NCBI GenBank assembly: GCA_016200365.1
Contig: JACQEW010000070.1
Span: forward strand, 1 to 35,971
Source: Nitrospinota bacterium
GTDB taxonomy: Bacteria > Nitrospinota > Nitrospinia > UBA9942
Direction: 5' to 3'
DNA: 35,971 nt
This document shows, piece after piece, positions 1-27,233 of this stretch. Position 1 is the stretch's first letter; every line of letters begins with the position of its first letter. Below the pieces are notes generated by a model that saw only the letters and a program-made list of their open reading frames with translations, was not told the DNA's origin and did no database searches. The position numbers were made by a program, and so were the translations under genes.

Positions 1-20
1 AGATTGAACCTTAATGTTTT

Positions 21-57
21 GGTTCAGCCCCTGATTGAATCTTTCAGGGGCTGAACC
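21..57. repeat. Perfect 14-bp-stem hairpin (GGTTCAGCCCCTGA / TCAGGGGCTGAACC, 9-nt loop) at the window edge
   Basis: Arms 21-34 and 44-57 are exact reverse complements. Neither strand has a U-tract, so this is not a canonical intrinsic terminator. Confidence 0.6.
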
Positions 58-96
58 AGCGGTGTGAGCACTAAAACCTTTTGTAATAGAATTAAA

Positions 97-876
97 ATGA
101 TACCAAGAATCATAGTTAAAAAAGTAATGTCAAAAGGCATAATATCCGTAAGTCCGGATACCACGCTAAAAAGGGCTGCCGAAATAATGAAATCGCAGAA
201 GATAGGGAGTCTTATTGTCAAAGAAGGTGAGGGGCTTGCCGGTATAGTTACAGAGGTAGACTTTACCCACAAGATAATGACAGGCGAGCTTGACCCTTAT
301 AAAATGACTGTCAGGGATATAATGAGCTCGCCCATTATCAGCATAGAGGCTGACGAGTCTATTGTAGAAGCTCAGGAATTAATGAAGAAAAGGGCGGTAA
401 GACATCTGATTGTAACAGAGAAGGGGAAACCTGCCGGCGTCGTATCGGCAAGAGACCTTGTCCATTTTGAATATCCTGAGGAGGGTGAGCCGTTCTGGCC
501 CAACCATGCAATAAAAAACGCCATGGTTATGTTAGTATGCCTGGGTATTTTAATGACCATTGCCACCTTCAGTCCTGCACCGATGGAGTCTAAGGCAGAC
601 CCATTTTCAACCCCTGAGCATATAAAGCCCCACTGGTATTTCCTTTTTTCCTATCAGCTATTGAAGGCTGCCGAGGTTTTTAAATCAATACATATCGAGC
701 TCCCAAAACTTATAGGCGTCCTCGGACAGGGGGTAATAATATTTTTCATATTATTACTTCCTTTCCTGGATAAGAATCCGGAAAGAGTTTACAGAAAAAG
801 GGCTGTGGCTATAAGTATCGGGATTTTTATAACACTATTGGTAGTTATTTTGACGATATGGGGATATATTTCGTGA
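97..876 (+). CDS. CBS-domain pair fused to a cytochrome b6f subunit IV / cytochrome b C-terminal-domain protein
   Basis: ORF 64..876 has GTG at 64 and ATG at 97 and 127; the start is uncertain. The N-terminal half has two CBS-like repeats (VMSKGIISVSPDTTLKRAAEIMKSQKIGSLIV; IMSSPIISIEADESIVEAQELMKKRAVRHLIV). The C-terminal half matches PetD hallmarks (GEPFWPN, ADPFSTPEHIKPHWYF, KLIGVL) with three hydrophobic helices. Confidence 0.85.
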   Translation: MIPRIIVKKVMSKGIISVSPDTTLKRAAEIMKSQKIGSLIVKEGEGLAGIVTEVDFTHKIMTGELDPYKMTVRDIMSSPIISIEADESIVEAQELMKKRAVRHLIVTEKGKPAGVVSARDLVHFEYPEEGEPFWPNHAIKNAMVMLVCLGILMTIATFSPAPMESKADPFSTPEHIKPHWYFLFSYQLLKAAEVFKSIHIELPKLIGVLGQGVIIFFILLLPFLDKNPERVYRKRAVAISIGIFITLLVVILTIWGYIS

Positions 877-2159
877 AAAAGACAGAAGCAAGAGGCAAGA
901 AGCAAGAAGCAAGAAGTCAGAAGCAAGAATCTCTTGCCTCTTGCCTCTTGCCTCTTGCCTCTTGTTTCCTGCTTCTTGCCTCTTGCCTCTTGCCTCCTGT
1001 GGCAGCATGGGCAGAGGACACTTGCATATCGTGTCATAGGGAATCGGCAGAAGAGAGGGTAAAAGTTTCTATATCAGAGTGGGAAAAGAGTATTCACAAG
1101 ATTGAAAAGGTTAAGTGCCACGACTGCCACGGCGGAGATCCTGAATCAAAAGAAGGAAGCGGTGCACATAAAGTCAATTTTATCGGGAAGCCTGCGAGGG
1201 CAGATATACCGAAATTCTGCGGCAGGTGTCATATTCGTCCATTAAACGATTATCGTAAGAGTAAGCATGAGAGACTCCTGTCCGTGAAAAAGGAAGATGG
1301 CGGCGCCACATGCATTGACTGCCACGGATATCACAGGATAAAAACAAAAAAAGATACCGAGTCTCTTACCTATTATTTAAATGTTCCGCAGACATGCAGC
1401 AGGTGCCATTCCGATCCTGCGAGGATGAAACCATTTGATATGCCAACCAATCAATTTGAACTTTATGAGAAAGGGACGCATGGAGCTATCTTATACGGTA
1501 AGGTGCAGGAGGTAAGCAGGACATCAGCGCCTAATTGTGCCGTATGTCATGGGCATCATGACTCTATGATCTCAACCCATCAGGATATACCCCGCATCTG
1601 CGGTAAATGTCATCTGTCAACCTTTGATAATTTCAAAGAGGGACTTCACTTCGATGCCCTGAAAAAATCAGGGGAGCCGTCATGTGCTTACTGCCATGGT
1701 AATCATAAGGTAATAAGACCGAAGGGTGAGGTATTCGCCGGTTTCAAAAAGGGGGAGTGCGGAGAATGCCATGAAAAATCTTCGGAAGAATTTAAGGTGG
1801 GACTCAATATACAAGGCAGTATAGAAAGACTTGAAAGTTTAAGGAGAGAAGCGAAAAACAGTATCGAAGATGTAAAAAAATATGGAAGAAATACTGCAGA
1901 TTTGGAACAGTTGTATACCGAGCTCAATGCAAATATTCTCATGATTGCCCCTGCAAGCCATTCCCTTGATTTGGATGGGATAAATAAATATGTTGATAAA
2001 ATTTCCACCATATCGGAGGATATTAAAAGGAAGGTAGATGAATTTAAAATGGAGATAAGACATCGTTATGTGGTATATGTCATCTCTATGATAATAATCC
2101 TCACTGCAGTTATTATACTTTTCACACAGCTTTTAATTTATAAAAAGAGTGAGGCATGA
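858..2159 (+). CDS. Membrane-anchored nonaheme c-type cytochrome
   Basis: Nine CXXCH motifs: CISCH, CHDCH, CGRCH, CIDCH, CSRCH, CAVCH, CGKCH, CAYCH, CGECH. The N-terminus resembles a signal peptide ending AWA-ED, and there is a C-terminal TM helix (VVYVISMIIILTAVIILFTQLLIY). ATG at 858 overlaps the upstream gene. An in-frame GTG at 873 forms a GTGA overlap with the upstream stop. Confidence 0.9.
   Translation: MGIYFVKKTEARGKKQEARSQKQESLASCLLPLASCFLLLASCLLPPVAAWAEDTCISCHRESAEERVKVSISEWEKSIHKIEKVKCHDCHGGDPESKEGSGAHKVNFIGKPARADIPKFCGRCHIRPLNDYRKSKHERLLSVKKEDGGATCIDCHGYHRIKTKKDTESLTYYLNVPQTCSRCHSDPARMKPFDMPTNQFELYEKGTHGAILYGKVQEVSRTSAPNCAVCHGHHDSMISTHQDIPRICGKCHLSTFDNFKEGLHFDALKKSGEPSCAYCHGNHKVIRPKGEVFAGFKKGECGECHEKSSEEFKVGLNIQGSIERLESLRREAKNSIEDVKKYGRNTADLEQLYTELNANILMIAPASHSLDLDGINKYVDKISTISEDIKRKVDEFKMEIRHRYVVYVISMIIILTAVIILFTQLLIYKKSEA
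884..995. repeat. Heptad hairpin, GCAAGA family: about 6.5 AGAAGCA-type units followed by 9 CTTGCCT-type units
   Basis: Units were counted directly. The purine arm is 884-929, the short loop is TCT at 930-932, and the pyrimidine arm is 933-995. The whole hairpin lies inside the 5' end of the nonaheme cytochrome ORF. Confidence 0.85.
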
Positions 2160-2172
2160 AGAAAAAATTTTC

Positions 2173-2919
2173 TCATAGCGGCTCTGATATGCCAAGTCTT
2201 CTTATCATCATAAAGTGGGGTATTAAAAGAAAGATGAATATCCACGGCAGTATTGCTACATGAAGGGCAAAGAATCTGGTCAATGTAAGCTGTCCTACAT
2301 CTTCACCGCCCCTTGCTAATATCTTGATGGTATCTCCTATCACGGGAACTGCACCGGCTATCTCGGTGCCTACCACTGTTGCCCAGTAAGAGAGCTGAGT
2401 CCACGGGAGGAGGTATCCCGTAAAACCAAATATCAAAGTTAAGGAGTAAAGTGAAACACCTACAACCCAGTTAAGATCCCTCGGCGGTTTATAGGCAGCA
2501 GAGAAAAATACCTTAAGCAAATGAATAAAGATTGACAGTATCATTAGATTTGAAGCCCAATAATGGATACCCCTTATAAGCCAGCCATAGGGGACATTGT
2601 TGGTTATGTGGACAATGCTGTCGTATGCCTGGTCAACGGTGGGGCGGTAATACATGAGGAGCATTATACCTGTTATTACCTGAATTATAAAAAGAAAAAA
2701 GCTTATACCTCCGAAGCATCCCCAGACAGTAAGACCCTTTGGAACCGGTTTTTTAAGTATCTTCTGTATGGCAAGACGCAGCTCCAGTCTTTCATCCAAC
2801 TCGCCGTAAAAAAAACCTAAAAGGGCAATCCAGTTGAATAGATTTCTCCACCCCACCCCTTTTTTTATTTCTTCTTTTGTCTTATCAGATGCCCTTCTCC
2901 TTTCCATCTCATACCTCAA
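2173..2919 (-). CDS. Cytochrome b6-like protein (N-terminal four-helix cytochrome b domain)
   Basis: Typical cytochrome b/b6 sequence: VWGCFGG, ITGIMLLMYYRP, RGIHYWASNLMILSIFIHLLK and FFALHVAILPWIFIFLLIPHF carry the paired heme-b histidines. It ends with SEPL, as a split b6 does. Confidence 0.9.
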   Translation of the reverse strand: MRYEMERRRASDKTKEEIKKGVGWRNLFNWIALLGFFYGELDERLELRLAIQKILKKPVPKGLTVWGCFGGISFFLFIIQVITGIMLLMYYRPTVDQAYDSIVHITNNVPYGWLIRGIHYWASNLMILSIFIHLLKVFFSAAYKPPRDLNWVVGVSLYSLTLIFGFTGYLLPWTQLSYWATVVGTEIAGAVPVIGDTIKILARGGEDVGQLTLTRFFALHVAILPWIFIFLLIPHFMMIRRLGISEPL

Positions 2920-3003
2920 ATTGAGAAGGAATTCTCAAAAGGGACCCTCAATAAGGGTAAACTTACTTTCAAGAAAATTCCTTCGGATAAAATGATTCCT
3001 TCC

Positions 3004-3456
3004 TCATCCAATTATGACAGCATCCTCTATTAATTTGACATCGTATGTAATAAGAGGTTTTGGCGCTGGACCGGCAATAACATTTCCGTTAAGGTCGAAG
3101 ACGGCGCCGTGGCAGGGGCAGACTACCCGTTTTTGCCCCTCGCTCCAGTTGACAATACAACTCAGGTGCGTGCATATTGCAGACAGGGCATATATCTTTC
3201 CCCCGCTGTTAACGACTATAGCAGCCTTTCCTCTGAGAACTATCTTTTTGGCATTCCCCTCTGTTATTTCTGAAAATGGGATCCTGACCTTTTCTTCCCC
3301 GGTTGAGGCTATAGTTTTCCCGGTGGGCCAAAGGTACCTTAATCCTATAAAACCGAGTCCTATACCTACAACTAATGTCCAGATACCTATGATTCCATTT
3401 AAAGTATCTAAAAGAAATTCCCTTCTAACCATTTTTATTCGTACCATTTGTAACAA
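3004..3456 (-). CDS. Rieske [2Fe-2S] protein with a Tat-like signal anchor
   Basis: Rieske boxes CTHLSC and CPCHGAVF. The N-terminus has an RREFLL twin-arginine-like motif followed by a TM helix. The codon at 3456 is TTG; ATG alternatives are at 3447 and 3432. Confidence 0.9.
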   Translation of the reverse strand: MLQMVRIKMVRREFLLDTLNGIIGIWTLVVGIGLGFIGLRYLWPTGKTIASTGEEKVRIPFSEITEGNAKKIVLRGKAAIVVNSGGKIYALSAICTHLSCIVNWSEGQKRVVCPCHGAVFDLNGNVIAGPAPKPLITYDVKLIEDAVIIG

Positions 3457-3466
3457 AGTAATAAAA

Positions 3467-3495
3467 ATTATAATCTTTCAAAAAGTGGCTGTCAA
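3467..3495 (-). promoter_or_regulatory. Consensus sigma70 promoter for the Rieske/cytochrome b unit
   Basis: The minus strand reads TTGACA (3495-3490), a 17-nt spacer, then TATAAT (3472-3467). It lies just upstream of the Rieske start codons. Confidence 0.6.
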
Positions 3496-3566
3496 CTGAA
3501 TTTTTGTCACTGAATTTTTGTCACTTGAATTTTTGTCAATGTCAATTTTTGTCAAGTGAATTTTTT
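3491..3566. repeat. Five tandem 14-16 bp direct repeats, GTCA(A/C)(N0-2)TGAATTTTT
   Basis: GTCAACTGAATTTTT, GTCACTGAATTTTT, GTCACTTGAATTTTT, GTCAATGTCAATTTTT, GTCAAGTGAATTTTTT. They fill the space between the two divergent -35 boxes. Confidence 0.75.
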
Positions 3567-3593
3567 GAGATGTAAATTCAGGGCATTTATAAT
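3565..3593 (+). promoter_or_regulatory. Near-consensus sigma70 promoter for aspS
   Basis: TTGAGA (3565-3570), a 17-nt spacer, then TATAAT (3588-3593), about 70 nt upstream of the aspS ATG. A GAGGAG RBS sits at about 3646. Confidence 0.55.
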
Positions 3594-3660
3594 TTCTTAT
3601 ACTTCAAAGAAAAATCTGATATACTGATAAAAATTTACTTAATGAGAGGAGCAAAATGAT

Positions 3661-5475
3661 ATGGCTGAGAAATTAAAAAGAACTCACAACTGCGGGGAGT
3701 TGAGGAGCGGCAATGCAGACGAGGCAGTTATACTTGCCGGATGGGTTCACAGACGGAGGGATCACGGCGGGCTTATCTTTATAGATTTAAGGGACAGGAA
3801 GGGGATTACACAGATCGTGCTCAACCCGGAGATTGATAAAATCGCACATACAAAGGCTCATGAGATAAGGAGCGAATATGTGCTTACAGTTAAGGGGAAA
3901 GTGGTTAAAAGACCTGAAGGGACGGCAAATTATAAGATAGGCACAGGGGAGATCGAAGTTATCGCAGAGGACATGGAAATCCTGAACGAATCAAAACCTT
4001 TGCCATTCTTAATAGAAGAAGGCGAGGAGGTATCGGAGATGCTGAGATTAAAATACAGATACCTCGATTTAAGGAGACCTTCACTCAGAGATAATATCAT
4101 ATTGAGGCACAGGGTTGTGAAGAAGGTGAGGGATTTTCTTGACAGCAGGGGTTTTCTGGAGATAGAGACACCCTTTCTCACTAAGAGCACGCCTGAAGGG
4201 GCAAGGGATTATCTTGTGCCGAGCAGATTGAATCCGGGCAAATTTTACGCCCTGCCGCAGTCGCCGCAATTATTCAAGCAAATACTGATGGTGGCAGGAT
4301 ATGAAAAATATTTTCAGGTGGTGAGGTGCTTCCGGGATGAAGATTTGAGGGCAGACAGACAGCCTGAATTTACCCAGATAGACATTGAGATGTCCTTCAT
4401 AGACAGGGAAGATTTGCTGCCGCTCATGGAAGAGATGATGTATGAGATATTCAAGTCATCCATATTCGTCGAGATACCGAGACCCTTTCCTGTCTTGAGC
4501 TACCATGAGGCGATGAACAGATTCGGCAGCGACAAACCCGATACGAGATTCGGGCTGGAGCTAAAGGATATAACATCGCCTGCCTCTAAATCGGATTTCA
4601 AGGTCTTTGCTGAAGCAATAAAAAATGGCGGGGAAGTAAGGGGGATTAATGCAAAGGGGTGCGCCGATTTCTCAAGAAAGGATCTGGACGATTTAACAGA
4701 GGAGTCAAAAATTTTCGGGGCAAAGGGGCTTGCATGGATAAAGATTACACCGGATGGTGTTCAATCTCCGATAGTGAAGTTTTTCTACCCCCCTGTATCC
4801 CCCCTTACAAAGGGGGGAGTGGAAGGGGTTGGGCTTCTTGACGAGATAGTAAGGATAATGGATGGAAAAGCCGGAGACTTGCTCCTCTTTGTTGCAGACA
4901 AGCCTAAGATTGTCTTCGATTCTCTATCTCATCTCCGTCTGAAGTTGGGAGAGAGATTAAAATTAATAGATGAAAATAAATTCAATTTTTTATGGGTAAC
5001 TGATTTCCCTCTGTTAGATTGGGATGAGGAGGGAAAAAGATGGGTTGCAATGCACCATCCCTTCACATCCCCTGTGGATGAAGACATACCCCTGTTTAAA
5101 ACCGACCCAAAGAAAATGAGGGCAAAGGCATACGACCTTGTTTTAAACGGCTCGGAGGTCGGAGGGGGGAGCATCAGGATACACAGAGGGGAGATTCAGA
5201 AACAGATGTTCGATGTCCTTGGATTGACAGAGGAAGAGGCAAAGGCAAAATTCGGCTTTCTCCTTGAGGCGCTTGAATACGGGACACCGCCCCACGGAGG
5301 GATTGCCTTTGGGCTCGACAGGCTCATGGCAATTCTCACAAATTCAAAATCCATCCGCGATGTGATAGCATTCCCGAAAACACAGAAGGCTGTCTGCCTT
5401 ATGACCGATGCGCCATCGAATGTAGAAAAGAGGCAGTTGAAGGAATTGAGCATCAAGCTCGATACCTTACAATGA
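3661..5475 (+). CDS. aspS: Aspartate--tRNA ligase (bacterial type)
   Basis: 604 aa. The N-terminal OB fold reads [20 protein letters not shown]. Class II motifs are present ([31 protein letters not shown]), along with a bacterial-type insertion domain. Confidence 0.95.
4786..4833. repeat. In-frame mini-palindrome inside aspS (CCCCCCTT-ACA-AAGGGGGG plus a G-run), encoding [15 protein letters not shown]
   Basis: The core hairpin 4799-4817 was read directly. The same architecture occurs at 7178-7223, 14108-14140 and 35906-35947. Confidence 0.7.
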
Positions 5476-6825: not shown

Positions 6826-6932
6826 ATCGAAGAAACTTTTCTCTCACTTCCGTTATTTTTCTTTTGCTATTTTTATAATTTTTTGAGGAACAAAAGAAAA
6901 ATAAAAAGTCGTTCGAGAAAAGTTTCTTCGAT
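6826..6932. repeat. 107-bp structured repeat, copy 1: an 18-bp perfect outer stem encloses a conserved A/T-rich arm pair
   Basis: Outer arms ATCGAAGAAACTTTTCTC (6826-6843) and GAGAAAAGTTTCTTCGAT (6915-6932). The inner arms are near-identical, in inverted orientation, to those at 15760-15868. It lies between convergent stop codons. Confidence 0.8.
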
Positions 6933-8930: not shown

Positions 8931-8934
8931 AATA

Positions 8935-9392
8935 GCAATGAGCAACGAGCAATGAGCAATGAGTATTATTTTTGGTATCTCTGTTTTTGTATAGAGACTT
9001 TCAGCCCCCCAATGATGCGAGAAACCTCAATAGCTAAATTACTTATATAATCGAATTCTTCCATGGTAATATAACCCACATCCATTGATACATATAATTG
9101 AGAACGGACTTCAGCACATGAAGCCTTCGCAATCACTATAAAACGATGAAATTCTGATCTGCTACCTCTCTCAAAACCTTCAGCAAGGTTAGACATGATA
9201 GAAACTGAAGATCTTTGAATTTGTTCACGAAGCCCAAAATCTTTCAAAAAAGGACTCTTTTTTGTCAGCAAATAGACCTGTTTTGTCAATTCTCTTGCCT
9301 TCTGCCATGCAACAAGGTCTTCAAATCTATTAACTTTCATCTTTATTCCTCCCTTTTTAATTGCTCATTGCTCATTACTCATTGCTCATTGC
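8935..9392. repeat. Cassette bounded by 29-nt inverted heptad repeats (GCAATGA units), enclosing one gene
   Basis: The left arm 8935-8963 (GCAATGAGCAACGAGCAATGAGCAATGAG) matches the reverse complement of the right arm 9364-9392 at 27 of 29 positions. Confidence 0.8.
8966..9340 (-). CDS. Four-helix-bundle protein ('23S rRNA intervening sequence protein' family)
   Basis: Family hallmarks [18 protein letters not shown] and [48 protein letters not shown] precedes the ATG at 9340. Confidence 0.85.
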
Positions 9393-10277
9393 TTAATACA
9401 AACTGGCGGTCATTTCATAATCCCTGACACACCTGAACCCGATAATATGGCTCACAGCCTCCGGCTCAACACCATCTTTGCTGGCGCACCGCACCTTTGG
9501 CGACAGGTCAACCCATGAGCCCCCCTTCACCACCTTCTTGTCTTTTCCTTGCTTTTGGTCACACCCGGGACAGCCGCCAAACCGGCTGTCCGTCCACTCC
9601 CTGACATTCCCGCCCATATCATGAACTCCATAAGGGCTTACATCTCCCTTGGCAATGCCGACAGGATTGCCTGTATTTACATTACATATCCCCTCTATAA
9701 TGTTTTCTAAAACCGCCTCTGCAGTGCTGGTTAATGCAGGGTCATATTTATCGCCCCACGGATAAGCCCTTCCATCCGTCCCCCTTGCAGCCTTTTCCCA
9801 TTCCTCCTCTGTAGGGAGCCTCTTTCCCGCCCACTTTGCATATTCCTTTGCATCATACCAGCTTATAAAAAGGACAGGATAATGAGCCTTTCCCGATGGA
9901 TACATGCCATTACTCCAATGCTTTGGTGCATGGTATCCGGTTGCATCTATAAATTTTTTATACTGTGCATTGGTTACTTCATATTTGTCAATAAAGAAAG
10001 ACTTTACATAGACCTTCCTCTTAGGCTTCTCGTTTTCATACAGATACCCTTCCATGCCTCCCTTATTGCCATAGACCTTTTTTACTTCCTTAATGTCGTC
10101 GTCGTCGCTCCCCATAACAAATTCACCTTCAGATATAAACACCATGCCCGTTCCATCAGCGCCTCCGCCACCATGTATATTCAGAGGGAGAGAAAAGACA
10201 GGGTAAACAATGAAGAACATAAACAATAAATTCTTTAATTTGGAAATTGGAAATTGGAAATTGGAAATTTTGCTCAT
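9393..10277 (-). CDS. Exported FGE-sulfatase (SUMF1/EgtB/PvdO) family protein, paralog 1
   Basis: YEVTNAQYKKF, GKRLPTEEEWEKAARGTDGRAYPWGD, GNVREWT, KGGSW, GFRC. The AGGAGG RBS and an ATGA overlap link it to the upstream gene. It has an extra CPGC loop. Confidence 0.85.
   Translation of the reverse strand: MSKISNFQFPISKLKNLLFMFFIVYPVFSLPLNIHGGGGADGTGMVFISEGEFVMGSDDDDIKEVKKVYGNKGGMEGYLYENEKPKRKVYVKSFFIDKYEVTNAQYKKFIDATGYHAPKHWSNGMYPSGKAHYPVLFISWYDAKEYAKWAGKRLPTEEEWEKAARGTDGRAYPWGDKYDPALTSTAEAVLENIIEGICNVNTGNPVGIAKGDVSPYGVHDMGGNVREWTDSRFGGCPGCDQKQGKDKKVVKGGSWVDLSPKVRCASKDGVEPEAVSHIIGFRCVRDYEMTASLY
10240..10267. repeat. Four TTGGAAA heptads (single arm) inside the 5' end of FGE paralog 1
   Basis: Counted directly. 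They are translated as ISNFQFPI. The same heptads in the same coding sense occur at 28064-28091. Confidence 0.8.
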
Positions 10278-13147: not shown

Positions 13148-13528
13148 TCACAGGGTTTTTAGATATTCAATTATATCACTTCTCTTATCATCATTAGACA
13201 TCACGGGGATTTTCGGCATGTGCTTTTTAAAATTTTTTTTGTGCCCCTGAGCTATAGGATCGCTACTATCCATCATCTTTTTCGGGTCTTTAAGCCATCT
13301 ATCAATCCACTCAATATCCCTTCGTTTGGTCACATTCTTTAGTCCTGGTCCTGTAGAAAGCTGCTCGGTTGTCTTATGGCATTGGCGACACCTCTTTTTA
13401 AACAACTCCTCACCTGCCGAGGCATCGCCAGCATAGGATGGTAGTTTAAACAAAAGAAGCAAGAAACAAGATGCAAGATACAAGATTTTTCTTGCTTCTA
13501 ACTTCTTGCTTCTTGTTTCTTGTCTCAT
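13148..13528 (-). CDS. Exported monoheme class I cytochrome c
   Basis: CRQCH motif followed by STGPGL, with a distal MP motif. Signal peptide MRQETRSKKLEARKILYLASCFLLLLFKLPSYA-GD. It forms an ATGA overlap with the upstream stop. Confidence 0.9.
   Translation of the reverse strand: MRQETRSKKLEARKILYLASCFLLLLFKLPSYAGDASAGEELFKKRCRQCHKTTEQLSTGPGLKNVTKRRDIEWIDRWLKDPKKMMDSSDPIAQGHKKNFKKHMPKIPVMSNDDKRSDIIEYLKTL
13452..13525. repeat. Heptad hairpin, GCAAGA family, entirely inside the cytochrome c signal-peptide codons
   Basis: On the + strand, a purine arm 13452-13486 and a pyrimidine arm 13491-13525. Confidence 0.8.
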
Positions 13529-14227: not shown

Positions 14228-14368
14228 AACCACAGAGACACTGAGACACAGAGAAAGAAAAAAAGATTAAAAAAGAGGAAAGATGCAAGAGGCAAGAAAA
14301 AAAATCTTGCTTCTGGCTTCTTACTTCTTGTTTCTTGTTTTTCTCTGTGCCTCCGTGTCTCTGTGGTT
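14228..14368. repeat. Two-layer nested hairpin: CACAGAGA-type outer arms around a GCAAGA-type inner hairpin
   Basis: Outer arms are AACCACAGAGACACTGAGACACAGAGAAAG (14228-14257) and TTTTCTCTGTGCCTCCGTGTCTCTGTGGTT (14339-14368). The inner hairpin is 14271-14337. Confidence 0.8.
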
Positions 14369-15740: not shown

Positions 15741-15759
15741 TTCATCTATAAAAATAATG

Positions 15760-15868
15760 CTGTAAAAACCTTTTTTTGAACGACTTTTTATTTTTTCTTT
15801 TGTTCCTTTAACAGTTTTAAAAAGGGCAAAAGAAAAAATAACGGAAGTGAGAAAAAAGGTTTTTACAG
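15760..15868. repeat. Structured repeat, copy 2: a 17-bp perfect outer stem, with inner arms inverted relative to 6826-6932
   Basis: Outer arms CTGTAAAAACCTTTTTT and AAAAAAGGTTTTTACAG. Inner arms GAACGACTTTTTATTTTTTCTTTTGTTC and GCAAAAGAAAAAATAACGGAAGTGA. Confidence 0.8.
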
Positions 15869-15872
15869 CAAA

Positions 15873-17547: not shown

Positions 17548-18327
17548 TCACCCTCTCCACCTCTTTGACTCCAGTGTCCTCATGTTCAAGAAAATGCAGA
17601 ACAATATAAACAGGAAATAATACATTATATCTTCAGTATCGAGAACTCCCTTTGCAAAATTATAAAGATGAGGCATAAAGGATAGATATTTTAAGATACT
17701 CCCTACAGATTCGCCGGCAAAACCTGCAGAGTATCCCATCATAAAAAATATAAGCAGAGAGCCGAATGAGAGGACGGCAGCCACAATCTGATTCTCTGTA
17801 ATGGAAGATGCGAATATTCCCAGGGATATAAAGGCTGCGCCCATAAGAAAAAGTCCAACATAGCCGCTTACAATAACACCCATCTCCGGCTCACCGAATA
17901 TACCGATAAGGATAAAACAGGGCACTGTAAGAAGAATCATGATGGTAAATATACCCATACAGCCGGCAAACTTGCCCAGTATTACCTCGGAGTCTTTTAC
18001 AGGATAGGTGAGGAGCAGCTCTATTGTACCGCTCTTCTTTTCCTCTGAAAACATCCTCATTGTAAGCATCGGCAGCATGATAAGCATAAAGAGGCTTAAA
18101 TTGGAAAAGAGGGGTCTTACCACCATCTCGGTTATATTCAACTGGTTATACTGCCGTGCCAGCATGGGCTGGGTCATTACCTGAAAGCTCACGGTGCTGA
18201 AGGTGGCAAATAGGTTATAGAAAAAATAGCCCGACAGGACGAGAAATATGGTAATAACCACAAAGGCTATGGGTGAATTAAAATAGGAGCGAAGCTCTTT
18301 TAGAAATATAAGATAGAAGTTTCTCAT
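17548..18327 (-). CDS. ABC-2 type permease (GldF-like)
   Basis: Six predicted hydrophobic helices and a position next to the ABC ATPase. ATG at 18327; the track start 18339 is TTG. Confidence 0.8.
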   Translation of the reverse strand: MRNFYLIFLKELRSYFNSPIAFVVITIFLVLSGYFFYNLFATFSTVSFQVMTQPMLARQYNQLNITEMVVRPLFSNLSLFMLIMLPMLTMRMFSEEKKSGTIELLLTYPVKDSEVILGKFAGCMGIFTIMILLTVPCFILIGIFGEPEMGVIVSGYVGLFLMGAAFISLGIFASSITENQIVAAVLSFGSLLIFFMMGYSAGFAGESVGSILKYLSFMPHLYNFAKGVLDTEDIMYYFLFILFCIFLNMRTLESKRWRG

Positions 18328-18338
18328 TTCAATTTTCA

Positions 18339-18398
18339 ATTTACGATTTACGATTTTAGATTTTTTAAATTGTAAATCGTAAATTGTAAATCGTAAAT
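18339..18398. repeat. Hairpin, CGTAAAT family
   Basis: ATTTACGATTTACGATTTT faces GTAAATCGTAAATTGTAAATCGTAAAT. It lies between the ATPase stop and the permease start. Confidence 0.75.
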
Positions 18399-19346
18399 CT
18401 AATTAATCTTCTCCTCTGTCACAAGCTTAATGAATATATCCTCGAGGCTCATGCCTACAGGACGCATCTCATGGAGAGACCAGTTCTTTCTGACAATAAC
18501 AGGCGGTATATCCTTGCCTGCATCAACCATATCCTTTTTCAGCTCTATCAAATAGGCATTAATATTGTCTGCCCCGTTCTCTTTTACAGATACCCTCGAT
18601 ACGCCGTTTATTTTACCTACCTCTGACAATACCTCCTTCTCAGGTCCGCCGACCCTTATTAAAATCTGCTGGGACCTCTGGAGCTGGGCGGTAAGGTTCT
18701 GCGGCGTATCTACTGCTACCAGCCTGCCTTCATTTATTATTACGACCCTCTGGCATATCATACTGACTTCCGGAAGGATATGGGTGCTTAATATAACCGT
18801 CCTTCTCCCTCCGAGGCTCTTTATCAGGCTCCTTATCTCTATTATCTGCCTTGGGTCTAATCCAATAGTCGGCTCATCGAGGATAAGAACCTCAGGGTCA
18901 TTTATCAGTGCCTGCGCCAGTCCCACCCTCTGCCTGTAGCCCTTTGAAAGCTCTCCTATATATTTCTTTGAAACTGCATTCAGAGCGCAGTCATCCATTA
19001 CATGCGAGACCCTTCTTTTTACATCCCTCCTGTCAACCCCTTTAAGTCCTGCCACAAATTCAAGATACACGGGAACCTGCATATCGGTATAAAGAGGGAC
19101 ACTCTCAGGAAGATAGCCTATCCGCTTGCGAACCTCAAGAGAATCCTCAAAGACATCAAAACCTGCTATCTTAGCCTTTCCGCTTGTGGCTGGCATGAAA
19201 CAGGTAAGGATTCTCATAGTAGTTGTTTTGCCGGCACCGTTAGGACCTAAAAAACCGAGAACCTCACCCTTCTCCACGGTAAAGGTAACATCATTAATCC
19301 CTCTTGCATCGCCGTATTTTTTTGTAAGATTCTCTACTTCAATCAT
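18399..19346 (-). CDS. ABC transporter ATP-binding protein (GldA-like)
   Basis: Walker A GPNGAGKTT, signature LSKGYRQR, Walker B VLILDEPT. Confidence 0.9.
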   Translation of the reverse strand: MIEVENLTKKYGDARGINDVTFTVEKGEVLGFLGPNGAGKTTTMRILTCFMPATSGKAKIAGFDVFEDSLEVRKRIGYLPESVPLYTDMQVPVYLEFVAGLKGVDRRDVKRRVSHVMDDCALNAVSKKYIGELSKGYRQRVGLAQALINDPEVLILDEPTIGLDPRQIIEIRSLIKSLGGRRTVILSTHILPEVSMICQRVVIINEGRLVAVDTPQNLTAQLQRSQQILIRVGGPEKEVLSEVGKINGVSRVSVKENGADNINAYLIELKKDMVDAGKDIPPVIVRKNWSLHEMRPVGMSLEDIFIKLVTEEKIN

Positions 19347-19358
19347 AAAAAAATTTTA

Positions 19359-19664
19359 CCACAAAGGCACAAAGGACACAAAGAAAAGAAAGGAGAAAGG
19401 AGAAAATGGGAAAAAAATTATAAAATAGAACACGGATGACACGGATGAGACGGATTGACACAGATAAAATAAATAAAGTTGAGTTGTTAAGTAGTTAAAC
19501 TACTCAACCACTTACTACTCAACTTTGTTCTTAATCAGCGAGAATCCGTTTAAATCAGCGTCATCTGCGTTCTATTAAGTTTTTGCATTCTCCCTTTCAC
19601 TATTTCCCCATTTCTCCTTAATCCTTTTCTTTTATTTTCTTTGTGCTCTTTGTGTCTTTGTGGT
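19359..19664. repeat. About 305-bp four-layer concentric imperfect palindrome
   Basis: Layers, from outside in: CACAAAG-type, GGAGAAA-type, ACGGATG-type (GAACACGGATGACACGGATGAGACGGATT facing AATCCGTTTAAATCAGCGTCATCTGCGTTC) and GTTGAGT-type, with the apex near 19497. Confidence 0.8.
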
Positions 19665-19671
19665 GAAAGAT

Positions 19672-22958: not shown

Positions 22959-23508
22959 ACAAAAATCTAAGAGGAGGAAACCTTAATGAAAAAAACAGTT
23001 ATAATTTTCACAGGTATATTTTTGATGCTGATTCTGGGGGTTACGCTGGTTATAGCCGTCCCAAACAGCCTCAGCAGAAAAATAAGCGATGGTATAAAGG
23101 CGAGGGGCTATATGGAGTATTCGCCGGATGATGCAAAGAGGCTGGCAATGCAGATATGCACCCAATGCCATGACACCGAAAGGATCGCCAAATACTGCCA
23201 CAGATGCGGTCCCCCCTTTATAGCCGTAATTCCTCACATGAAGAAATTCATTGCGGATTATAAAATGAAAGATTCATATAAAGAGCTGTCGGATGTTACA
23301 GATTATCAGGCGGCTGCCATAATCCAGACATGGAATGCGCTGGTAGGAAACTGGGAGGCTGATTTCAGAAAGCAGGATCTGGTAAAGCTGATAGGAGACA
23401 ATAAGAGCCTGCTTGAGCTCCTTAACACCCCTATCGAAAAAAGAAAAATAGAATATGCCCTTAGAACGAGAGGAGATAAGGTAACAGGAGCATATCAAGC
23501 GGGACATC

Positions 23509-24186
<678 letters not shown>

Positions 24187-24234
24187 AAGTCTGTCTTCTG
24201 TCATCTGTCTTCTGTCATCTGTCTTCTGACTTTT

Positions 24235-24919
24235 ATGACTATTTTCGAGGCATATACAGGCGGACTTCATAATTTTTTTTCCATCTGGTTTTTCTGTCTA
24301 TTTCAGGTAACTCCCTTCTTCATAGCTTATCTCACAGGATTAACAATGATGGAGATAGGGGACAGAAATTGGAGACAGGGGGTGCCGGGAATATTGACCG
24401 GCAGTATACTATGCCTGATAGGATTCATGTCAGGATATATACTTCTTGGCTCAACATCTTTATCCATCAGCAGCACACTTTTTCGCTATTTATATGTTCT
24501 GAATCAGATGGGCGGCGTAATACTGCTCATAACAGGACTTTACTTTACAGGATTATTCCGTCTGCCCGAGCATACGGGAAATATGTACAGGAGACATATA
24601 GGACTTTTAACGGGACTCTCCTTTGCTTTTGCCTACCAGCCCTGCGTAACACCAACCTTAACCTCCATCTATAACATGACAAAAAATCCCGATACGGTGT
24701 CAAGAGGCACTCTCCTGCTCGGCTTTTATTCGCTCGGAATAGCCACAGCTTTTTTATCCGTTGGTCTTTTAATCTCAAGCCTGCTTTCTGCCGACAAAAT
24801 AAGAGGCATTAGAAGAATAATACGATATGTAAGCGGAGTGGTAATTATTATTATGTCAATCCTCATACTGGCAAACTGGATGACCATATATAAAAGTTAT
24901 CTGGTGGGGTGGGCGGTGC

Positions 24920-24930
<11 letters not shown>
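24235..24930 (+). CDS. ccdA: CcdA/DsbD-family thiol:disulfide electron-transfer membrane protein
   Basis: Six hydrophobic helices. Conserved Cys in TM1 (FFCLFQVTPFF) and in the PC..P box (YQPCVTPTL). Confidence 0.8.
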
Positions 24931-25774
<844 letters not shown>

Positions 25775-25853
25775 AAAATATTCACAATTAATCCTGTCAA
25801 GTTCTTAATTTTCTTTGTGTTCTTTGTGTCTTTGTGGTGAATTATGTTTTTAA

Positions 25854-26291
25854 ATGAAAATAAAGATATTCCTTCTATCCTTAGCCATTGTGAGCATCTT
25901 TTCGCTGATAAAGTATGTCTTCTATCAGTCAGCCGGCACTGATAGTGTGATGGGAATCTCTCACAATCTCGCCTGTCCATGCGAATGCCCTATGGTTCTC
26001 GAAGACTGCCACATGAGCTGCGGGATGGAATGGAAAGATATGATAGGACAGAGGCTGATGGCAGGCGGAAACAGGGACGATATTGAAGGGTATTTCTTTA
26101 AACGGTTCGGGAAAGAGGCGATGCTTACGCCTCTCCAGAGGATAAGCGGAAAATGGTATCAAATCACGAGGGGCGGTTATCCTTTGAGCGATATTATCCT
26201 TTTTTCGGCAATACTGCTTGTATGGTCAGGTGTGCTGTATTTTATAATAAGCGGGACAATTGATTTTCTAAAAAAGAGAATAAAAACTTGA
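25854..26291 (+). CDS. CcmH/NrfF-like protein with an atypical CPCEC motif
   Basis: N-terminal signal anchor. LACPCECPMVLEDC...IGQRLMAGGNRDDIEGYFFKRFGKEAMLTP follows the CcmH layout (LRCPxC ... G ... I ... RYG ... P), and a TM helix follows. Confidence 0.55.
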   Translation: MKIKIFLLSLAIVSIFSLIKYVFYQSAGTDSVMGISHNLACPCECPMVLEDCHMSCGMEWKDMIGQRLMAGGNRDDIEGYFFKRFGKEAMLTPLQRISGKWYQITRGGYPLSDIILFSAILLVWSGVLYFIISGTIDFLKKRIKT

Positions 26292-26391
26292 TTTTACCGC
26301 AGAGATGCAGAGGCACAGAGAAAAATATAAATATTTTAAAAAGATTTTAATATCTCTGCGTCTCCGCGCCTCTGCGGTTTATAATTTCCTT
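26282..26391. repeat. About 110-bp repeat element, copy 2 (hairpin 26296-26378 plus conserved flanks)
   Basis: Same orientation and near-identical arms and flanks as 11564-11674. Confidence 0.85.
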
Positions 26392-26394
26392 GAC

Positions 26395-27189: not shown

Positions 27190-27219
27190 AAGTCAGAAGC
27201 CAGAAGTCAGAAGTCAGAA
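27188..27219. repeat. Four and a half AGAAGTC-type heptads (single arm)
   Basis: Counted directly. I found no complementary arm nearby. The repeat overlaps the stop codon of paralog 3. Confidence 0.75.
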
Positions 27220-27233
27220 TAAAACAATATTTA

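What the first reader, a model, noticed from the sequence alone, without database searches (positions are those of the whole stretch)
858..1000. Both arms of a heptad hairpin are translated as the signal peptide of a nonaheme cytochrome c
The only plausible starts are the ATG at 858 and the GTG at 873 (a GTGA overlap with the upstream stop), and both precede the hairpin at 884-995. The purine arm translates as the Lys/Arg/Glu/Gln-rich n-region (KKTEARGKKQEARSQKQE). The complementary pyrimidine arm translates as the hydrophobic h-region (LASCLLPLASCFLLLASCLLPPVAAWA), ending in an AXA-type cleavage site just before the first CXXCH. A c-type cytochrome must be exported to receive heme, so the hairpin-encoded peptide has to work as a signal peptide. 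Starting after the hairpin would give a leaderless, non-exportable protein. The units are 7 nt, so gain or loss of one unit by slipped-strand mispairing would shift the frame. This is the same logic as the CTCTT repeats in the leader-peptide region of Neisseria opa genes. The hairpin could also control translation initiation or elongation at the targeting step.
Basis: partly seen in the sequence, partly recalled or inferred. Interest (0 to 1): 0.8.

Follow-up and report, generated by a model that had tools for sequence, protein, structure and literature searches.

The report
Heptad-repeat hairpin translated as signal peptide
A 110-base hairpin built from 7-base repeats lies inside the start of a nine-heme cytochrome c gene and is most likely read through by the ribosome to make the protein's export signal; it is one of many such hairpins in this bacterium, and several of the others also encode export signals.

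Summary
Positions 884-929 hold a purine heptad array (AGAAGCA x6.6) and 931-996 hold its pyrimidine complement (CTCTTGC x9.4). They fold into a long hairpin (-83.5 kcal/mol, z -6.8) inside ORF 873-2159, a protein with nine CXXCH motifs.

The signal-peptide reading is well supported. All homologues carry a signal peptide at this position. A hairpin-free orthologue has an ordinary 30-aa one. The AWA|ED cleavage motif is conserved. In three hairpin-bearing orthologues of different length, the start that overlaps the upstream stop stays in frame.

The element is not unique. The window holds 28 heptad/octad arrays, mostly purine-then-pyrimidine hairpins that begin at or next to upstream stop codons. 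At least two more are read as signal peptides: a monoheme cytochrome c at 13430-13528(-) and ORF 24920. About 15 different hairpin alleles of the ORF 24920 family are all in frame. The hairpin-encoded leader of the monoheme gene has 0 differences in 99 nt against a relative, where the rest of the gene has 50 in 282.

Phase variation as in Neisseria opa is not supported: no out-of-frame or unit-number variants were seen. I rate this a new variant of known kinds (opa leader repeats, ERIC/RPE elements in ORFs, heptamer repeats at start codons).

The parts
64..876 (+). Upstream gene: a CBS-domain pair fused to a cytochrome b6f subunit IV (PetD)-like membrane protein. Its TGA stop is at 874-876.
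   Evidence: Pfam CBS (2.2e-28) and Cytochrom_B_C (2.7e-17). The C-terminus ...TIWGYIS* is conserved in L001, L007 and L008.
860..864 (+). GGGGA, a weak Shine-Dalgarno-like stretch 8 nt upstream of GTG 873.
   Evidence: Read directly from the sequence. Its function is inferred.
873..875 (+). Most likely start codon: a GTG that overlaps the upstream stop (GTGA), the geometry of translational coupling.
   Evidence: NCBI's annotated start (P0001, 428 aa). The same -1 or +2 overlap start is in frame in L001 (ATGA) and L007 (TAATG) although the hairpin lengths differ (D = 140, 122, 158 nt, all 2 mod 3).
884..929 (+). Purine (5') arm: GCAAGAR heptads x6.6, translated as the Lys/Arg/Glu/Gln-rich n-region (residues 2-19, 7 basic and 3 acidic residues).
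931..996 (+). Pyrimidine (3') arm: CTCTTGC heptads x9.4, translated as the hydrophobic h-region (LASCLLP/LASCFLL repeats, residues 20-42). It contains three lipobox-like LASC motifs.
873..1013 (+). Coding sequence of the 47-residue signal peptide (n-, h- and c-regions). The c-region PPVAAWA has the predicted signal peptidase I site after A47 (AWA|ED, codons 1005-1013).
   Evidence: Hydropathy maximum over 10 residues is 2.78, against 2.5-3.05 in conventional orthologous signal peptides. A/A at positions -3/-1. AWA|ED, ARA|QD and VWA|QD are conserved at the same distance from the first CXXCH.
1014..2159 (+). Mature nonaheme c-type cytochrome (nine CXXCH motifs) with a C-terminal transmembrane anchor (residues 400-423, 2070-2141).
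   Evidence: The C-terminal anchor is conserved in distant homologues.
2173..3456 (-). Convergent cytochrome b6 (2173-2919) and Rieske (3004-3456) genes. Together with the two genes above they encode a Rieske/cytochrome b complex.
   Evidence: Pfam results. L007 has the same synteny.
13430..13528 (-). Second case in the window: a GCAAGAA-type heptad hairpin translated as the signal peptide (MRQETRSKKLEARKILYLASCFLLLLFKLPSYA|GDA) of a monoheme cytochrome c. Its ATG overlaps the upstream stop (ATGA).
   Evidence: It has 0 differences in 99 nt against L179 and L180, while the rest of the gene has 50 differences in 282 nt against L179.
24920..25042 (+). Third case: an AGAAGTC/TTCTGTC hairpin translated as the leader MNTKIRSQKSEVRSQKSKNKTTILFFFLSSVFCLLSSDVFA|SD of a conserved uncharacterised protein that follows a CcdA-like gene. 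Its ATG overlaps the end of the upstream gene.

Best explanation
The element at 884-996 belongs to a lineage-wide class of purine-arm-then-pyrimidine-arm heptad-repeat palindromes. These sit at or next to the stop codon of an upstream gene in operons of this Nitrospinota bacterium.

Here the cytochrome c start codon (GTG 873) overlaps the stop of the upstream subunit IV-like gene (GTGA), so there is no intergenic space and the palindrome lies inside the 5' coding region.

Ribosomes that start at GTG 873, probably by termination-reinitiation coupling, read through both arms.
- Purine-only codons encode Lys, Arg, Glu and Gln. Their reverse complements are pyrimidine-rich codons that encode Leu, Phe, Ser, Cys, Ala and Pro.
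- The palindrome therefore translates into a positively charged n-region followed by a hydrophobic h-region.
- Together with the retained c-region PPVAAWA, this makes a long (47-aa) Sec-type signal peptide, cleaved after AWA.
- The signal delivers the nine-heme domain to the periplasm for heme attachment. A C-terminal helix keeps the protein in the membrane.

What is shown: the anatomy, the frame conservation, the replacement of a conventional signal peptide in orthologues, and the recurrence in other exported proteins.
What is inferred: use of GTG 873, Sec targeting and cleavage at AWA, and any regulatory role of the RNA hairpin (enforced translational coupling, or RNase III or stability control).

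It is not a phase-variation switch.
For: 1. The hairpin and the open frame are real.

2. A signal peptide is required and is expected at this spot. All homologues have one ending 2-6 residues before the first CXXCH. The orthologous hairpin-free lineage has MSHKSKSFFIPSWIFYFSFCILLSPSEVWA|QDNC, from an ATG that overlaps the end of the upstream gene.

3. The distance from the upstream stop to the first mature codon is 140, 122 and 158 nt in the window, L001 and L007. All three are 2 mod 3, so the overlap start is in frame each time.

4. L001 carries a same-unit hairpin and L007 a different-unit hairpin at the same site.

5. The hydrophobic core, the net charge of the n-region and the -3/-1 residues are within the range of the conventional orthologous signal peptides.

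6. The monoheme cytochrome c at 13148-13528(-) has the same design. In its orthologue L171 the GTGA-overlap GTG is the only in-frame start upstream of the h-region, so both arms must be translated there. L171 differs from the window by a clean 21-nt (3-heptad) indel.

7. In the ORF 24920 family, 18 of 21 close homologues are called from the overlap start. One of the other three (P0176) is open and in frame from that start in its DNA, which makes 19 of 19 informative cases. About 15 different hairpin alleles are all in frame, and distant homologues have plain signal peptides.

8. A ModA-type solute-binding protein elsewhere (P0166) has a leader built from the same heptad.

9. The hairpin-encoded leader of the monoheme gene is 100% identical over 99 nt to L179, while the rest of the gene is 78-89% identical. 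Non-coding hairpins at neighbouring junctions in the same two genomes have unrelated units.

10. Conventional signal-peptide coding regions show no excess structure (z = +0.7 and -0.4), against -3.9 to -10.4 for the hairpin ones.

11. There is no Rfam family in the window, and the hairpin has no terminator-like U-tract.
Against: - No signal-peptide predictor, proteomic data or ribosome-profiling data were available.
- The leader is atypical. The n-region is 19 residues with three acidic residues. The uncharged stretch is 28 residues, with three Pro and three Cys, which is long for a cleaved Sec signal.
- In-frame TTG codons at 948 and 990 could in principle start translation inside the 3' arm.
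- On the sense strand each heptad carries an A.C mismatch, and the sense RNA is less stable than the antisense (-59 against -78 kcal/mol for 876-1000). So there is no sign that sense-strand pairing is selected at this particular locus.
- Only four orthologous junction states exist in the databases searched, and the window allele itself is on a single contig.
- The extreme conservation of the monoheme leader could reflect recent recombination rather than constraint.
Confidence: 0.75

Rival explanations
1. Only the 3' arm is translated. Translation starts at the in-frame TTG 948 (or TTG 990) inside the pyrimidine arm and gives a short hydrophobic leader (MPLASCFLLLASCLLPPVAAWA). The purine arm is then untranslated intercistronic RNA, like the non-coding hairpins elsewhere in the window.
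For: - In-frame TTGs exist at 948 and 990.
- In L001 and in the window's monoheme gene a TTG sits in the loop (AAAATCTTGTAY). In L001 it is preceded by AGGA.
- Most hairpins of this class in the window are non-coding.
Against: - TTG 948 has no purine-rich Shine-Dalgarno stretch (the upstream sequence is CTTGCCTC) and is buried in the stem.
- The resulting leader would lack a positively charged n-region, which all orthologous signal peptides have.
- In L171 no such internal start exists.
- In L007 every alternative start lies at the 5' edge of the purine arm, so both arms are read anyway.
- The overlap start is in frame in 5 of 5 hairpin junctions of the two cytochromes, and the ORF 24920 family always reads in frame from the conserved MNT start.
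Confidence: 0.1
2. The hairpin-encoded leader is a lipoprotein (signal peptidase II) signal. One of the three LASC motifs produced by the CTCTTGC heptad acts as a lipobox, so the cytochrome is cleaved and lipidated at Cys38 (or Cys31) instead of being cleaved after AWA.
For: - LASC fits the lipobox pattern [LVI][ASTVI][GAS]C (established knowledge).
- The third LASC (residues 35-38) follows 14 uncharged residues and a positive n-region.
- The same motif occurs in P0003, P0179 and P0166.
Against: - The lipobox is a by-product of the repeat unit and is absent from the orthologues P0002 (LVFC) and P0127 (FSFC).
- The A-x-A site, by contrast, is conserved at a fixed distance from the first heme motif in all of them.
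- The protein already has a conserved C-terminal membrane anchor.
Confidence: 0.12
3. Phase-variable contingency locus. Slipped-strand gain or loss of single heptads switches the cytochrome ON and OFF by frameshift, as the CTCTT repeats do in Neisseria opa leader regions.
For: The 7-nt unit is not a multiple of three and lies in coding sequence. Perfect runs of 3.1, 4.9 and 3.3 units exist.
Against: - No OFF allele was seen: 3 nonaheme, at least 4 monoheme and about 15 ORF 24920-family hairpin alleles are all in frame.
- P0003 is one identical sequence on 27 contigs, and its 90% cluster has no other member.
- In the 90% clusters of the monoheme orthologues, full-length members keep one length per cluster (126, 126, 131, 132, 132, 128 aa). 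The shorter members of the P0135 cluster (97-125 aa) probably reflect start calls or partial sequences; their sequences were not read.
- The window's ORF 24920 allele is identical in another MAG (P0175).
- The only length difference resolved between orthologous arms is 21 nt, which is three heptads.
- A respiratory-complex subunit is an unlikely contingency gene.
Confidence: 0.04
4. A neutral or selfish insertion has damaged the gene. The palindrome spread into the leader, the protein is no longer exported efficiently, or the repeat counts are an assembly artefact.
For: - The window allele is on a single contig.
- One related contig has an assembly gap inside such a hairpin (L177).
- Heptad arrays are far denser in this genome than in its relatives.
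Against: - The mature part is intact, with nine heme motifs and a conserved anchor.
- Hairpin-bearing orthologues are assembled identically in many independent data sets.
- The arrays (46 and 66 nt) are shorter than typical reads (my inference).
- The frame is preserved in every allele examined.
Confidence: 0.04

Closest known systems
CTCTT coding repeats in the leader-peptide region of Neisseria opa genes
   Same: A pyrimidine-rich short tandem repeat, whose unit is not a multiple of 3 nt, lies in the signal-peptide coding region and is translated as its hydrophobic core.
   Different: - opa has a single direct array of perfect repeats whose number varies at high frequency and switches the frame ON and OFF.
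- Here the repeats are imperfect heptads paired with an inverted purine arm that encodes the n-region.
- All alleles seen here are in frame, and unit numbers are stable across data sets.
ERIC-like small mobile palindromic repeat RU-2 forming part of the predicted signal peptide of Yersinia pestis YPO1552 (Delihas 2007, PMC2759123)
   Same: A palindromic intergenic repeat element lies at the 5' end of an ORF for an exported protein and contributes to a predicted signal peptide. Homologues in other genera have unrelated signal peptides.
   Different: - RU-2 is a 168-bp dispersed element with a conserved sequence.
- Here each locus has its own heptad unit, both arms map onto the n- and h-regions, and the pattern recurs in several gene families and many alleles.
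Rickettsia palindromic elements inserted in frame in protein-coding genes (Ogata et al. 2000, listed in the reference list of PMC2759123; otherwise my own knowledge)
   Same: Palindromic repeats are tolerated and translated inside functional genes.
   Different: RPEs are conserved-sequence mobile elements that insert at sites within proteins that tolerate them. They are not tandem heptads, are not stop-codon-adjacent, and are not known to supply signal peptides.
Intergenic heptamer tandem repeats: cyanobacterial STRR sequences and the TAACTGA repeats of marine Beggiatoaceae (MacGregor 2015, PMC4679880)
   Same: - Many heptanucleotide arrays per genome at gene boundaries, often directly upstream of start codons that lack a ribosome-binding site.
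- Indels between strains occur in 7-nt steps.
- A post-transcriptional role has been proposed.
   Different: - Those are direct repeats of one dominant unit. Only 1 inverted set among 170 is listed for the BOGUAY genome.
- Here the units differ from locus to locus, arrays come as inverted pairs that form long hairpins (some nested), and some are inside coding sequence.
REP/BIME-type intercistronic hairpins of enterobacteria (my own knowledge)
   Same: Stable stem-loops placed just after stop codons within operons. They are plausible mRNA 3'-end stabilisers or processing sites.
   Different: REPs share a conserved sequence, are mobilised by RAYT transposases, and are not built from tandem heptads. 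No RAYT-like gene was seen among the window ORFs that were scanned.

Membership tests
Sec-type (signal peptidase I) signal peptide | N-terminal positively charged n-region | tested here: met
   Residues 1-19 have 7 basic and 3 acidic residues, net +4. The region is unusually long.
Sec-type (signal peptidase I) signal peptide | Hydrophobic h-region | tested here: met
   The 10-residue Kyte-Doolittle maximum is 2.78, inside the 2.5-3.05 range of conventional orthologous signal peptides. The uncharged run of 28 residues is longer than usual.
Sec-type (signal peptidase I) signal peptide | c-region with small residues at -3/-1, at the position where homologues are cleaved | tested here: met
   AWA|ED. 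Orthologues have ARA|QD, AWA|ED and VWA|QD, in each case 2 residues before the first heme-binding Cys.
Sec-type (signal peptidase I) signal peptide | Recognised by a trained predictor, or shown to be exported and cleaved | not testable with these tools
   No SignalP, DeepSig or LipoP, no proteomics and no reporter assays were available.
Lipoprotein (signal peptidase II) signal peptide | Lipobox [LVI][ASTVI][GAS]C at the end of the h-region | tested here: met
   LASC occurs at residues 21-24, 28-31 and 35-38.
Lipoprotein (signal peptidase II) signal peptide | Lipobox conserved in orthologues | tested here: not met
   Absent from P0002 (LVFC) and P0127 (FSFC). Present only where the CTTGCYT heptad is present.
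Phase-variable simple-sequence contingency locus (opa type) | Repeat unit not divisible by 3, inside the coding region | tested here: met
   7-nt units at 884-996 within ORF 873-2159.
Phase-variable simple-sequence contingency locus (opa type) | Long perfect repeat tract | tested here: inconclusive
   The longest perfect runs are 3.1, 4.9 and 3.3 units, which is short compared with known switches.
Phase-variable simple-sequence contingency locus (opa type) | Unit-number polymorphism among close strains, including out-of-frame alleles | tested here: not met
   No variants in the 90% clusters of P0001-P0003. P0003 is identical on 27 contigs. Full-length members of each monoheme cluster keep one length. 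All alleles are in frame. Reads for the window itself could not be examined.
Heptamer intergenic tandem repeats (STRR / TAACTGA type) | Many tandem heptanucleotide arrays at gene boundaries in one genome | tested here: met
   28 arrays of period 7-9 in 36 kb. 13 of 16 junction arrays start within about 10 nt of, or overlap, the upstream stop codon.
Heptamer intergenic tandem repeats (STRR / TAACTGA type) | One or a few dominant unit sequences, arranged as direct repeats | tested here: not met
   Units differ from locus to locus and between orthologous junctions of related genomes. Arrays come as inverted pairs.
Dispersed palindromic mobile element (REP, ERIC/RU, RPE, MITE) | Copies share a conserved sequence | tested here: not met
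   Only the GCAAGAR unit recurs (884-996, 13454-13523, 14269-14340, and L001). The other hairpins have unrelated units. Target-site duplications were not examined.
Intrinsic transcription terminator | GC-rich stem followed by a U-tract | tested here: not met
   Not reported by the terminator scan of 1-3700. The stem is followed by CCTCCTGTGGCAGC.
Any curated RNA family (Rfam 15) | Covariance-model match at the gathering score | tested here: not met
   0 matches in the whole window.

The most novel reading that the evidence does not exclude
In this Nitrospinota lineage, stop-codon-adjacent purine-then-pyrimidine heptad palindromes may be a functional RNA-structure class. Their presence at a junction is conserved while the unit sequence turns over.

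Because purine-rich codons encode charged residues and their reverse complements encode hydrophobic ones, these palindromes double as ready-made signal peptides. They appear to have repeatedly replaced the conventional leaders of periplasmic redox proteins.

The result would be a dual-coded element in which RNA pairing and the export signal constrain each other (0 differences in 99 nt against about 18% divergence in the rest of the monoheme gene). It could also make synthesis of the exported subunit strictly dependent on translation of the upstream gene, or on escape from RNase III.
Probability: 0.3. Interest if true: 0.8.

Novelty: new variant of a known kind. Interest (0 to 1): 0.6.

Why it matters
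Signal peptides are usually treated as fast-evolving, loosely constrained sequences of obscure origin. These data show a concrete and repeatable route by which a non-coding structural repeat becomes an export signal. The route follows from the complementarity of the genetic code: a purine arm gives the charged n-region and a pyrimidine arm gives the hydrophobic h-region.

There are dozens of natural alleles in at least three gene families, including two c-type cytochromes that cannot work without export. This gives a natural test set for three questions:
- how much sequence latitude Sec targeting allows;
- whether a strong mRNA hairpin placed right after the start codon couples synthesis of an exported subunit to its upstream partner;
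- what the abundant heptamer repeats of some bacteria are for.

There is also a practical lesson for annotation. Gene callers truncate or extend such genes inconsistently. P0004 and P0176 were called without their leaders, and several intergenic hairpins are swallowed into ORFs.

Tried and rejected
- Rfam scan of the whole window: no hits.
- Terminator scan: the hairpin is not terminator-like.
- Scans of metagenome and GTDB genome contigs for more orthologous junctions. They returned only copies of the P0003 locus plus relatives of 36% identity or less, some of them from other Nitrospinota MAGs with plain signal peptides. Only four junction states were therefore available for the focal gene.
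- phmmer of the 50-residue leader against 1.84 billion representatives. It gave 14 hits. Most look like spurious ORFs through heptad arrays in other organisms. Only P0166, a solute-binding protein, was informative.
- Test for RNA-level selection by comparing sense with antisense folding energy (G.U against A.C mismatches) over 11 hairpins. There was no consistent bias. The focal hairpin is weaker on the sense strand, whereas L001, L171 and L178 are stronger on the sense strand. Inconclusive.
- The idea that any signal-peptide coding region is a proto-hairpin. Rejected, because conventional leaders show no excess structure (z = +0.7 and -0.4).
- Tat signal: not pursued. There is no twin-arginine motif in the window leader, and c-type cytochromes mature after Sec export (established knowledge).
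- One Pfam batch failed on a coordinate error of mine and was not repeated. The ABC-transporter annotation was taken from the precomputed domains of the syntenic L179 locus.


Full report
WHAT IS THERE

The window is a contig of a 'Nitrospinae bacterium' MAG. The protein in question is NCBI MBI3813430.1, locus HY279_03050.

Positions 884-929 are a purine heptad array (consensus AGAAGCA, 6.6 copies). Positions 931-996 are the complementary pyrimidine array (CTCTTGC, 9.4 copies). The arms pair over about 45 nt at 80-84% complementarity in several registers, the tightest with a 3-nt loop. RNA of 840-1030 folds at -83.5 kcal/mol, z = -6.8 against dinucleotide shuffles.

The hairpin lies inside ORF 858-2159. 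The product has nine CXXCH motifs and a C-terminal transmembrane helix. It follows a CBS-PetD (subunit IV-like) gene that ends with TGA at 874-876, and it faces convergent cytochrome b6 and Rieske genes.

One correction is needed. Besides ATG 858 and GTG 873, three other starts are in frame: TTG 948, TTG 990 and GTG 999.

IS THE HAIRPIN TRANSLATED?

Homologues across many phyla have ordinary 24-30-residue signal peptides that end 2-6 residues before the first CXXCH. Only three orthologue lineages above 60% identity exist in the 5.8-billion-protein collection. Scans of metagenome and GTDB contigs added no new junction types. The four junction states are:
- Window: GTGA overlap start, GCAAGAR x6.6 and CTCTTGC x9.4.
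- L001 (P0003, 68% identity): ATGA overlap start, the same unit (GAGGCAA x5, a 32-nt spacer, CTTGCTT x4).
- L007 (P0002, 72% identity, same synteny): TAATG overlap start, a different GGAGAAA-type hairpin, followed by an ordinary-looking h-region LVFCFVLLQFTIAAAWA.
- L008, L169, L170 (P0004/P0127 cluster): no hairpin, and a conventional leader MSHKSKSFFIPSWIFYFSFCILLSPSEVWA|QDNC that starts at an ATG overlapping the end of the upstream gene.

The cleavage motif (AWA|ED, ARA|QD, AWA|ED, VWA|QD) keeps a fixed distance from the first heme motif. The distance from the upstream stop to the first mature codon is 140, 122 and 158 nt in the three hairpin loci. All are 2 mod 3, which is the value that puts the overlap start in frame. 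Because a stop-free heptad array is open in all three frames, openness alone means nothing. The frame relation is the informative quantity.

The leader has a net positive n-region (+4), a hydrophobic core as strong as those of the conventional orthologues, and A/A at -3/-1. No signal-peptide predictor was available.

THE ELEMENT IS ONE OF MANY

A simple period scan finds 28 arrays of period 7-9 in 36 kb (see also TRF). Most form inverted pairs, giving about a dozen hairpins, some of them nested. Units differ from locus to locus.

Ten of eleven hairpins have the purine-rich arm first, a property that is the same on both strands. In 13 of 16 junction arrays the first unit begins within about 10 nt of, or overlaps, the stop codon of the upstream ORF (my reading). 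Several downstream genes start directly after the 3' arm with no visible Shine-Dalgarno sequence.

So the focal hairpin is in coding sequence because the cytochrome's start overlaps the upstream stop and leaves no intergenic space.

INDEPENDENT REPLICATES OF THE HAIRPIN-AS-LEADER DESIGN

(a) Monoheme cytochrome c, ORF 13148-13528(-) (Pfam Cytochrom_C).
- It starts at an ATGA overlap and reads MRQETRSKKLEARKILYLASCFLLLLFKLPSYA|GDA from a GCAAGAA-type hairpin.
- Its orthologues show the same unit with three more heptads (P0131/L171, a clean 21-nt indel), A/T-rich heptad hairpins (P0130, P0133, P0135), another palindromic element (P0137, P0144), or plain leaders (P0138-P0143).
- In L171 the overlap GTG is the only in-frame start upstream of the h-region, so both arms must be translated there.

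(b) ORF 24920-25774, a conserved uncharacterised protein that follows a CcdA-like gene.
- It reads MNTKIRSQKSEVRSQKSKNKTTILFFFLSSVFCLLSSDVFA|SD from an AGAAGTC/TTCTGTC hairpin.
- Of 21 close homologues, 18 are called from the same overlap start.
- One of the remaining three (P0176) is open and in frame from that start at the DNA level. Another (P0191) has an assembly gap in the hairpin. The third (P0186) is called from inside the hairpin, and its DNA was not examined.
- That makes 19 of 19 informative cases, with about 15 different hairpin alleles, one of which carries the GCAAGAG unit.
- Distant homologues have plain or lipoprotein leaders.

(c) A ModA-type solute-binding protein found with the 50-residue leader as query (P0166) has a leader built from the same heptad.

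(d) Weaker cases in the window: pyrimidine arrays inside the h-region of a lipoprotein-like caspase-domain protein (34206-34232) and at the N-terminus of an FGE-sulfatase-like protein (10237-10269).

CONSTRAINT

L179 is a syntenic locus from a relative. The first 99 nt of its monoheme cytochrome gene (leader plus hairpin) are identical to the window. The remaining 282 nt carry 50 differences (78-89% identity).

At the neighbouring non-coding junctions both genomes have hairpins, but with unrelated units: GATTTAC against TTAGCTN, CACCAGAG against GTGTCAGA, and CACAGAGA plus GCAAGAA against CATTGGT. So the presence of a hairpin at a junction is conserved while its sequence is not, and the translated hairpin is frozen.

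This fits a functional structure that becomes doubly constrained once it is coding. A recombination tract centred on the junction is an alternative explanation for the frozen segment.

Conventional leader-coding regions show no excess structure (z = +0.7 and -0.4), against -3.9 to -10.4 for the hairpin leaders.

MECHANISM

Most likely (confidence about 0.75), ribosomes initiate at GTG 873, probably by reinitiation after terminating at the overlapping TGA, and read through both arms. Purine codons give K, R, E and Q. The complementary pyrimidine codons give L, F, S, C, A and P. The retained c-region gives the AWA cleavage site. The result is a Sec leader for a protein that must reach the periplasm to receive heme.

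Whether the RNA hairpin also acts is inferred, not shown. Candidate roles are blocking independent initiation so that the cytochrome is made only when subunit IV is, acting as an RNase III or stability element, or both.

At this locus the sense strand carries an A.C mismatch in each heptad and is weaker than the antisense strand (-59 against -78 kcal/mol). The opposite holds in L001, L171 and L178. I draw no conclusion from this.

RIVALS

- Initiation at TTG 948 (3' arm only) is not excluded, but it lacks a Shine-Dalgarno sequence, a positive n-region and comparative support.
- The LASC motifs generated by the heptad fit a lipobox, so signal peptidase II processing is possible. The lipobox is not conserved in orthologues, whereas the A-x-A site is.
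- Phase variation is not supported. No out-of-frame allele and no unit-number variants were seen in the clusters or in independent assemblies. The one length difference resolved between orthologous arms is three heptads.
- Pseudogene or assembly-artefact readings are unlikely, given the intact mature domain and the repeated independent assemblies of orthologous hairpins.

COMPARISON WITH WHAT IS KNOWN

The closest precedents are:
- opa CTCTT leader repeats: the same place and the same hydrophobic coding, but a frameshift switch;
- Rickettsia palindromic elements inserted in frame in genes;
- heptamer arrays directly upstream of start codons in Beggiatoaceae and cyanobacteria (PMC4679880);
- REP-type intercistronic hairpins.

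None of these combines locus-specific heptad units, inverted arms that map one-to-one onto the n- and h-regions, adjacency to the upstream stop codon, and recurrence across gene families. I therefore rate it a new variant of a known kind, with interest 0.6.

Noticed in passing
window 8931-8963 and 9358-9393, flanking ORF 8966-9340 (-): A 124-aa '23S rRNA intervening-sequence protein' gene (PF05635, 8.6e-37; weak bAvd-like match) sits in the loop of a heptad inverted repeat (AGCAATG x4.3 and ATTGCTC x4.9). In effect a gene is carried inside one of these hairpins, reminiscent of rRNA intervening sequences that RNase III excises.
   Followed up: partly
window 14228-14368, 19355-19668, 25696-25843, 35506-35657: Nested, multi-layer palindromes. 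Outer arms are octads (CACAGAGA, CACAAAGG, CGCAGAGA) and enclose inner heptad or nonamer arms with different units. The region 19355-19668 folds at about -129 kcal/mol.
   Followed up: partly
window-wide (11 hairpins): Ten of eleven hairpins have the purine-rich arm first. Because they are palindromes this holds on both strands, so translation in either direction would give a charged segment followed by a hydrophobic one. The only exception is 18325-18402. The reason for this polarity is unexplained.
   Followed up: partly
window 17459, 18326 (- strand starts) and 24235 (+ strand start): Several genes start within 0-8 nt of the 3' arm of an intergenic hairpin and have no recognisable Shine-Dalgarno sequence. 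The hairpin brings the upstream stop and the downstream start close together. The same holds at the orthologous junctions in L179, although the units there are unrelated.
   Followed up: partly
window 24149-24186 and 25696-25774: The mechanical ORFs of the redoxin-like gene (23509-24186) and of ORF 24920-25774 run into the purine arm of the next hairpin and stop in its loop. Purine arms may therefore also encode charged C-terminal tails (…KITEVRSQRTEDRK*, …THHKGTKSTKEQRLDFRQDIQDKTG*).
   Followed up: no
window 64-876 (+): The cytochrome b6f subunit IV-like protein carries an N-terminal CBS-domain pair. The fusion is conserved in L001, L007 and L008, which hints at nucleotide- or energy-state regulation of this Rieske/cytochrome b complex.
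   Followed up: no
window 3490-3565: A direct repeat array (period 15 or 29, TGTCAACTGAATTTT, about 5 copies) lies in the divergent promoter region between the Rieske gene and aspS. It overlaps strong sigma-70-like hexamers (12/12 and 11/12 matches) and may be a set of regulator binding sites.
   Followed up: no
window 6826-6932 and 15758-15870: Two copies, in opposite orientation, of a palindromic element of about 110 nt that is not built from heptads (arms of 40-43 nt, 74-75% complementary, with shared sequence such as AAAGAAAAATAAAAAGTCGTTC). It looks like a separate MITE-like family.
   Followed up: no
L007 1286-1318; L001 4271-4298; L008 4234-4261; L170 2697-2724: Heptad arrays lie in the middle of conserved genes of relatives: (AAGGGGC) x4.7 inside a Prismane/hybrid-cluster protein gene, and a CCGACTC-type array inside thymidylate kinase that is conserved between lineages. 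Heptad arrays may be translated at internal positions too.
   Followed up: no
P0137 and P0144 (monoheme cytochrome c orthologues): N-terminal extensions that read ...EIASPSARNDNKAEVSLRGALATKQS... look like the translation of a different, GC-richer palindromic repeat inserted upstream of the leader. The same junction attracts several unrelated kinds of palindrome.
   Followed up: no
L177 984-1083; gene calls P0004 (L008) and P0176 (L176): Assembly and annotation problems caused by these elements. There is a scaffold gap exactly in a hairpin, and some gene calls are truncated to a downstream start so that the leader is missed.
   Followed up: yes
window 22986-28651: A cluster of cytochrome c maturation and thiol-redox genes (two AhpC/TSA-redoxin genes, a CcdA/DsbD_TM-like gene, a CcmH-like gene) is interleaved with FGE-sulfatase-like genes. 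Almost every junction in it carries a heptad array.
   Followed up: partly
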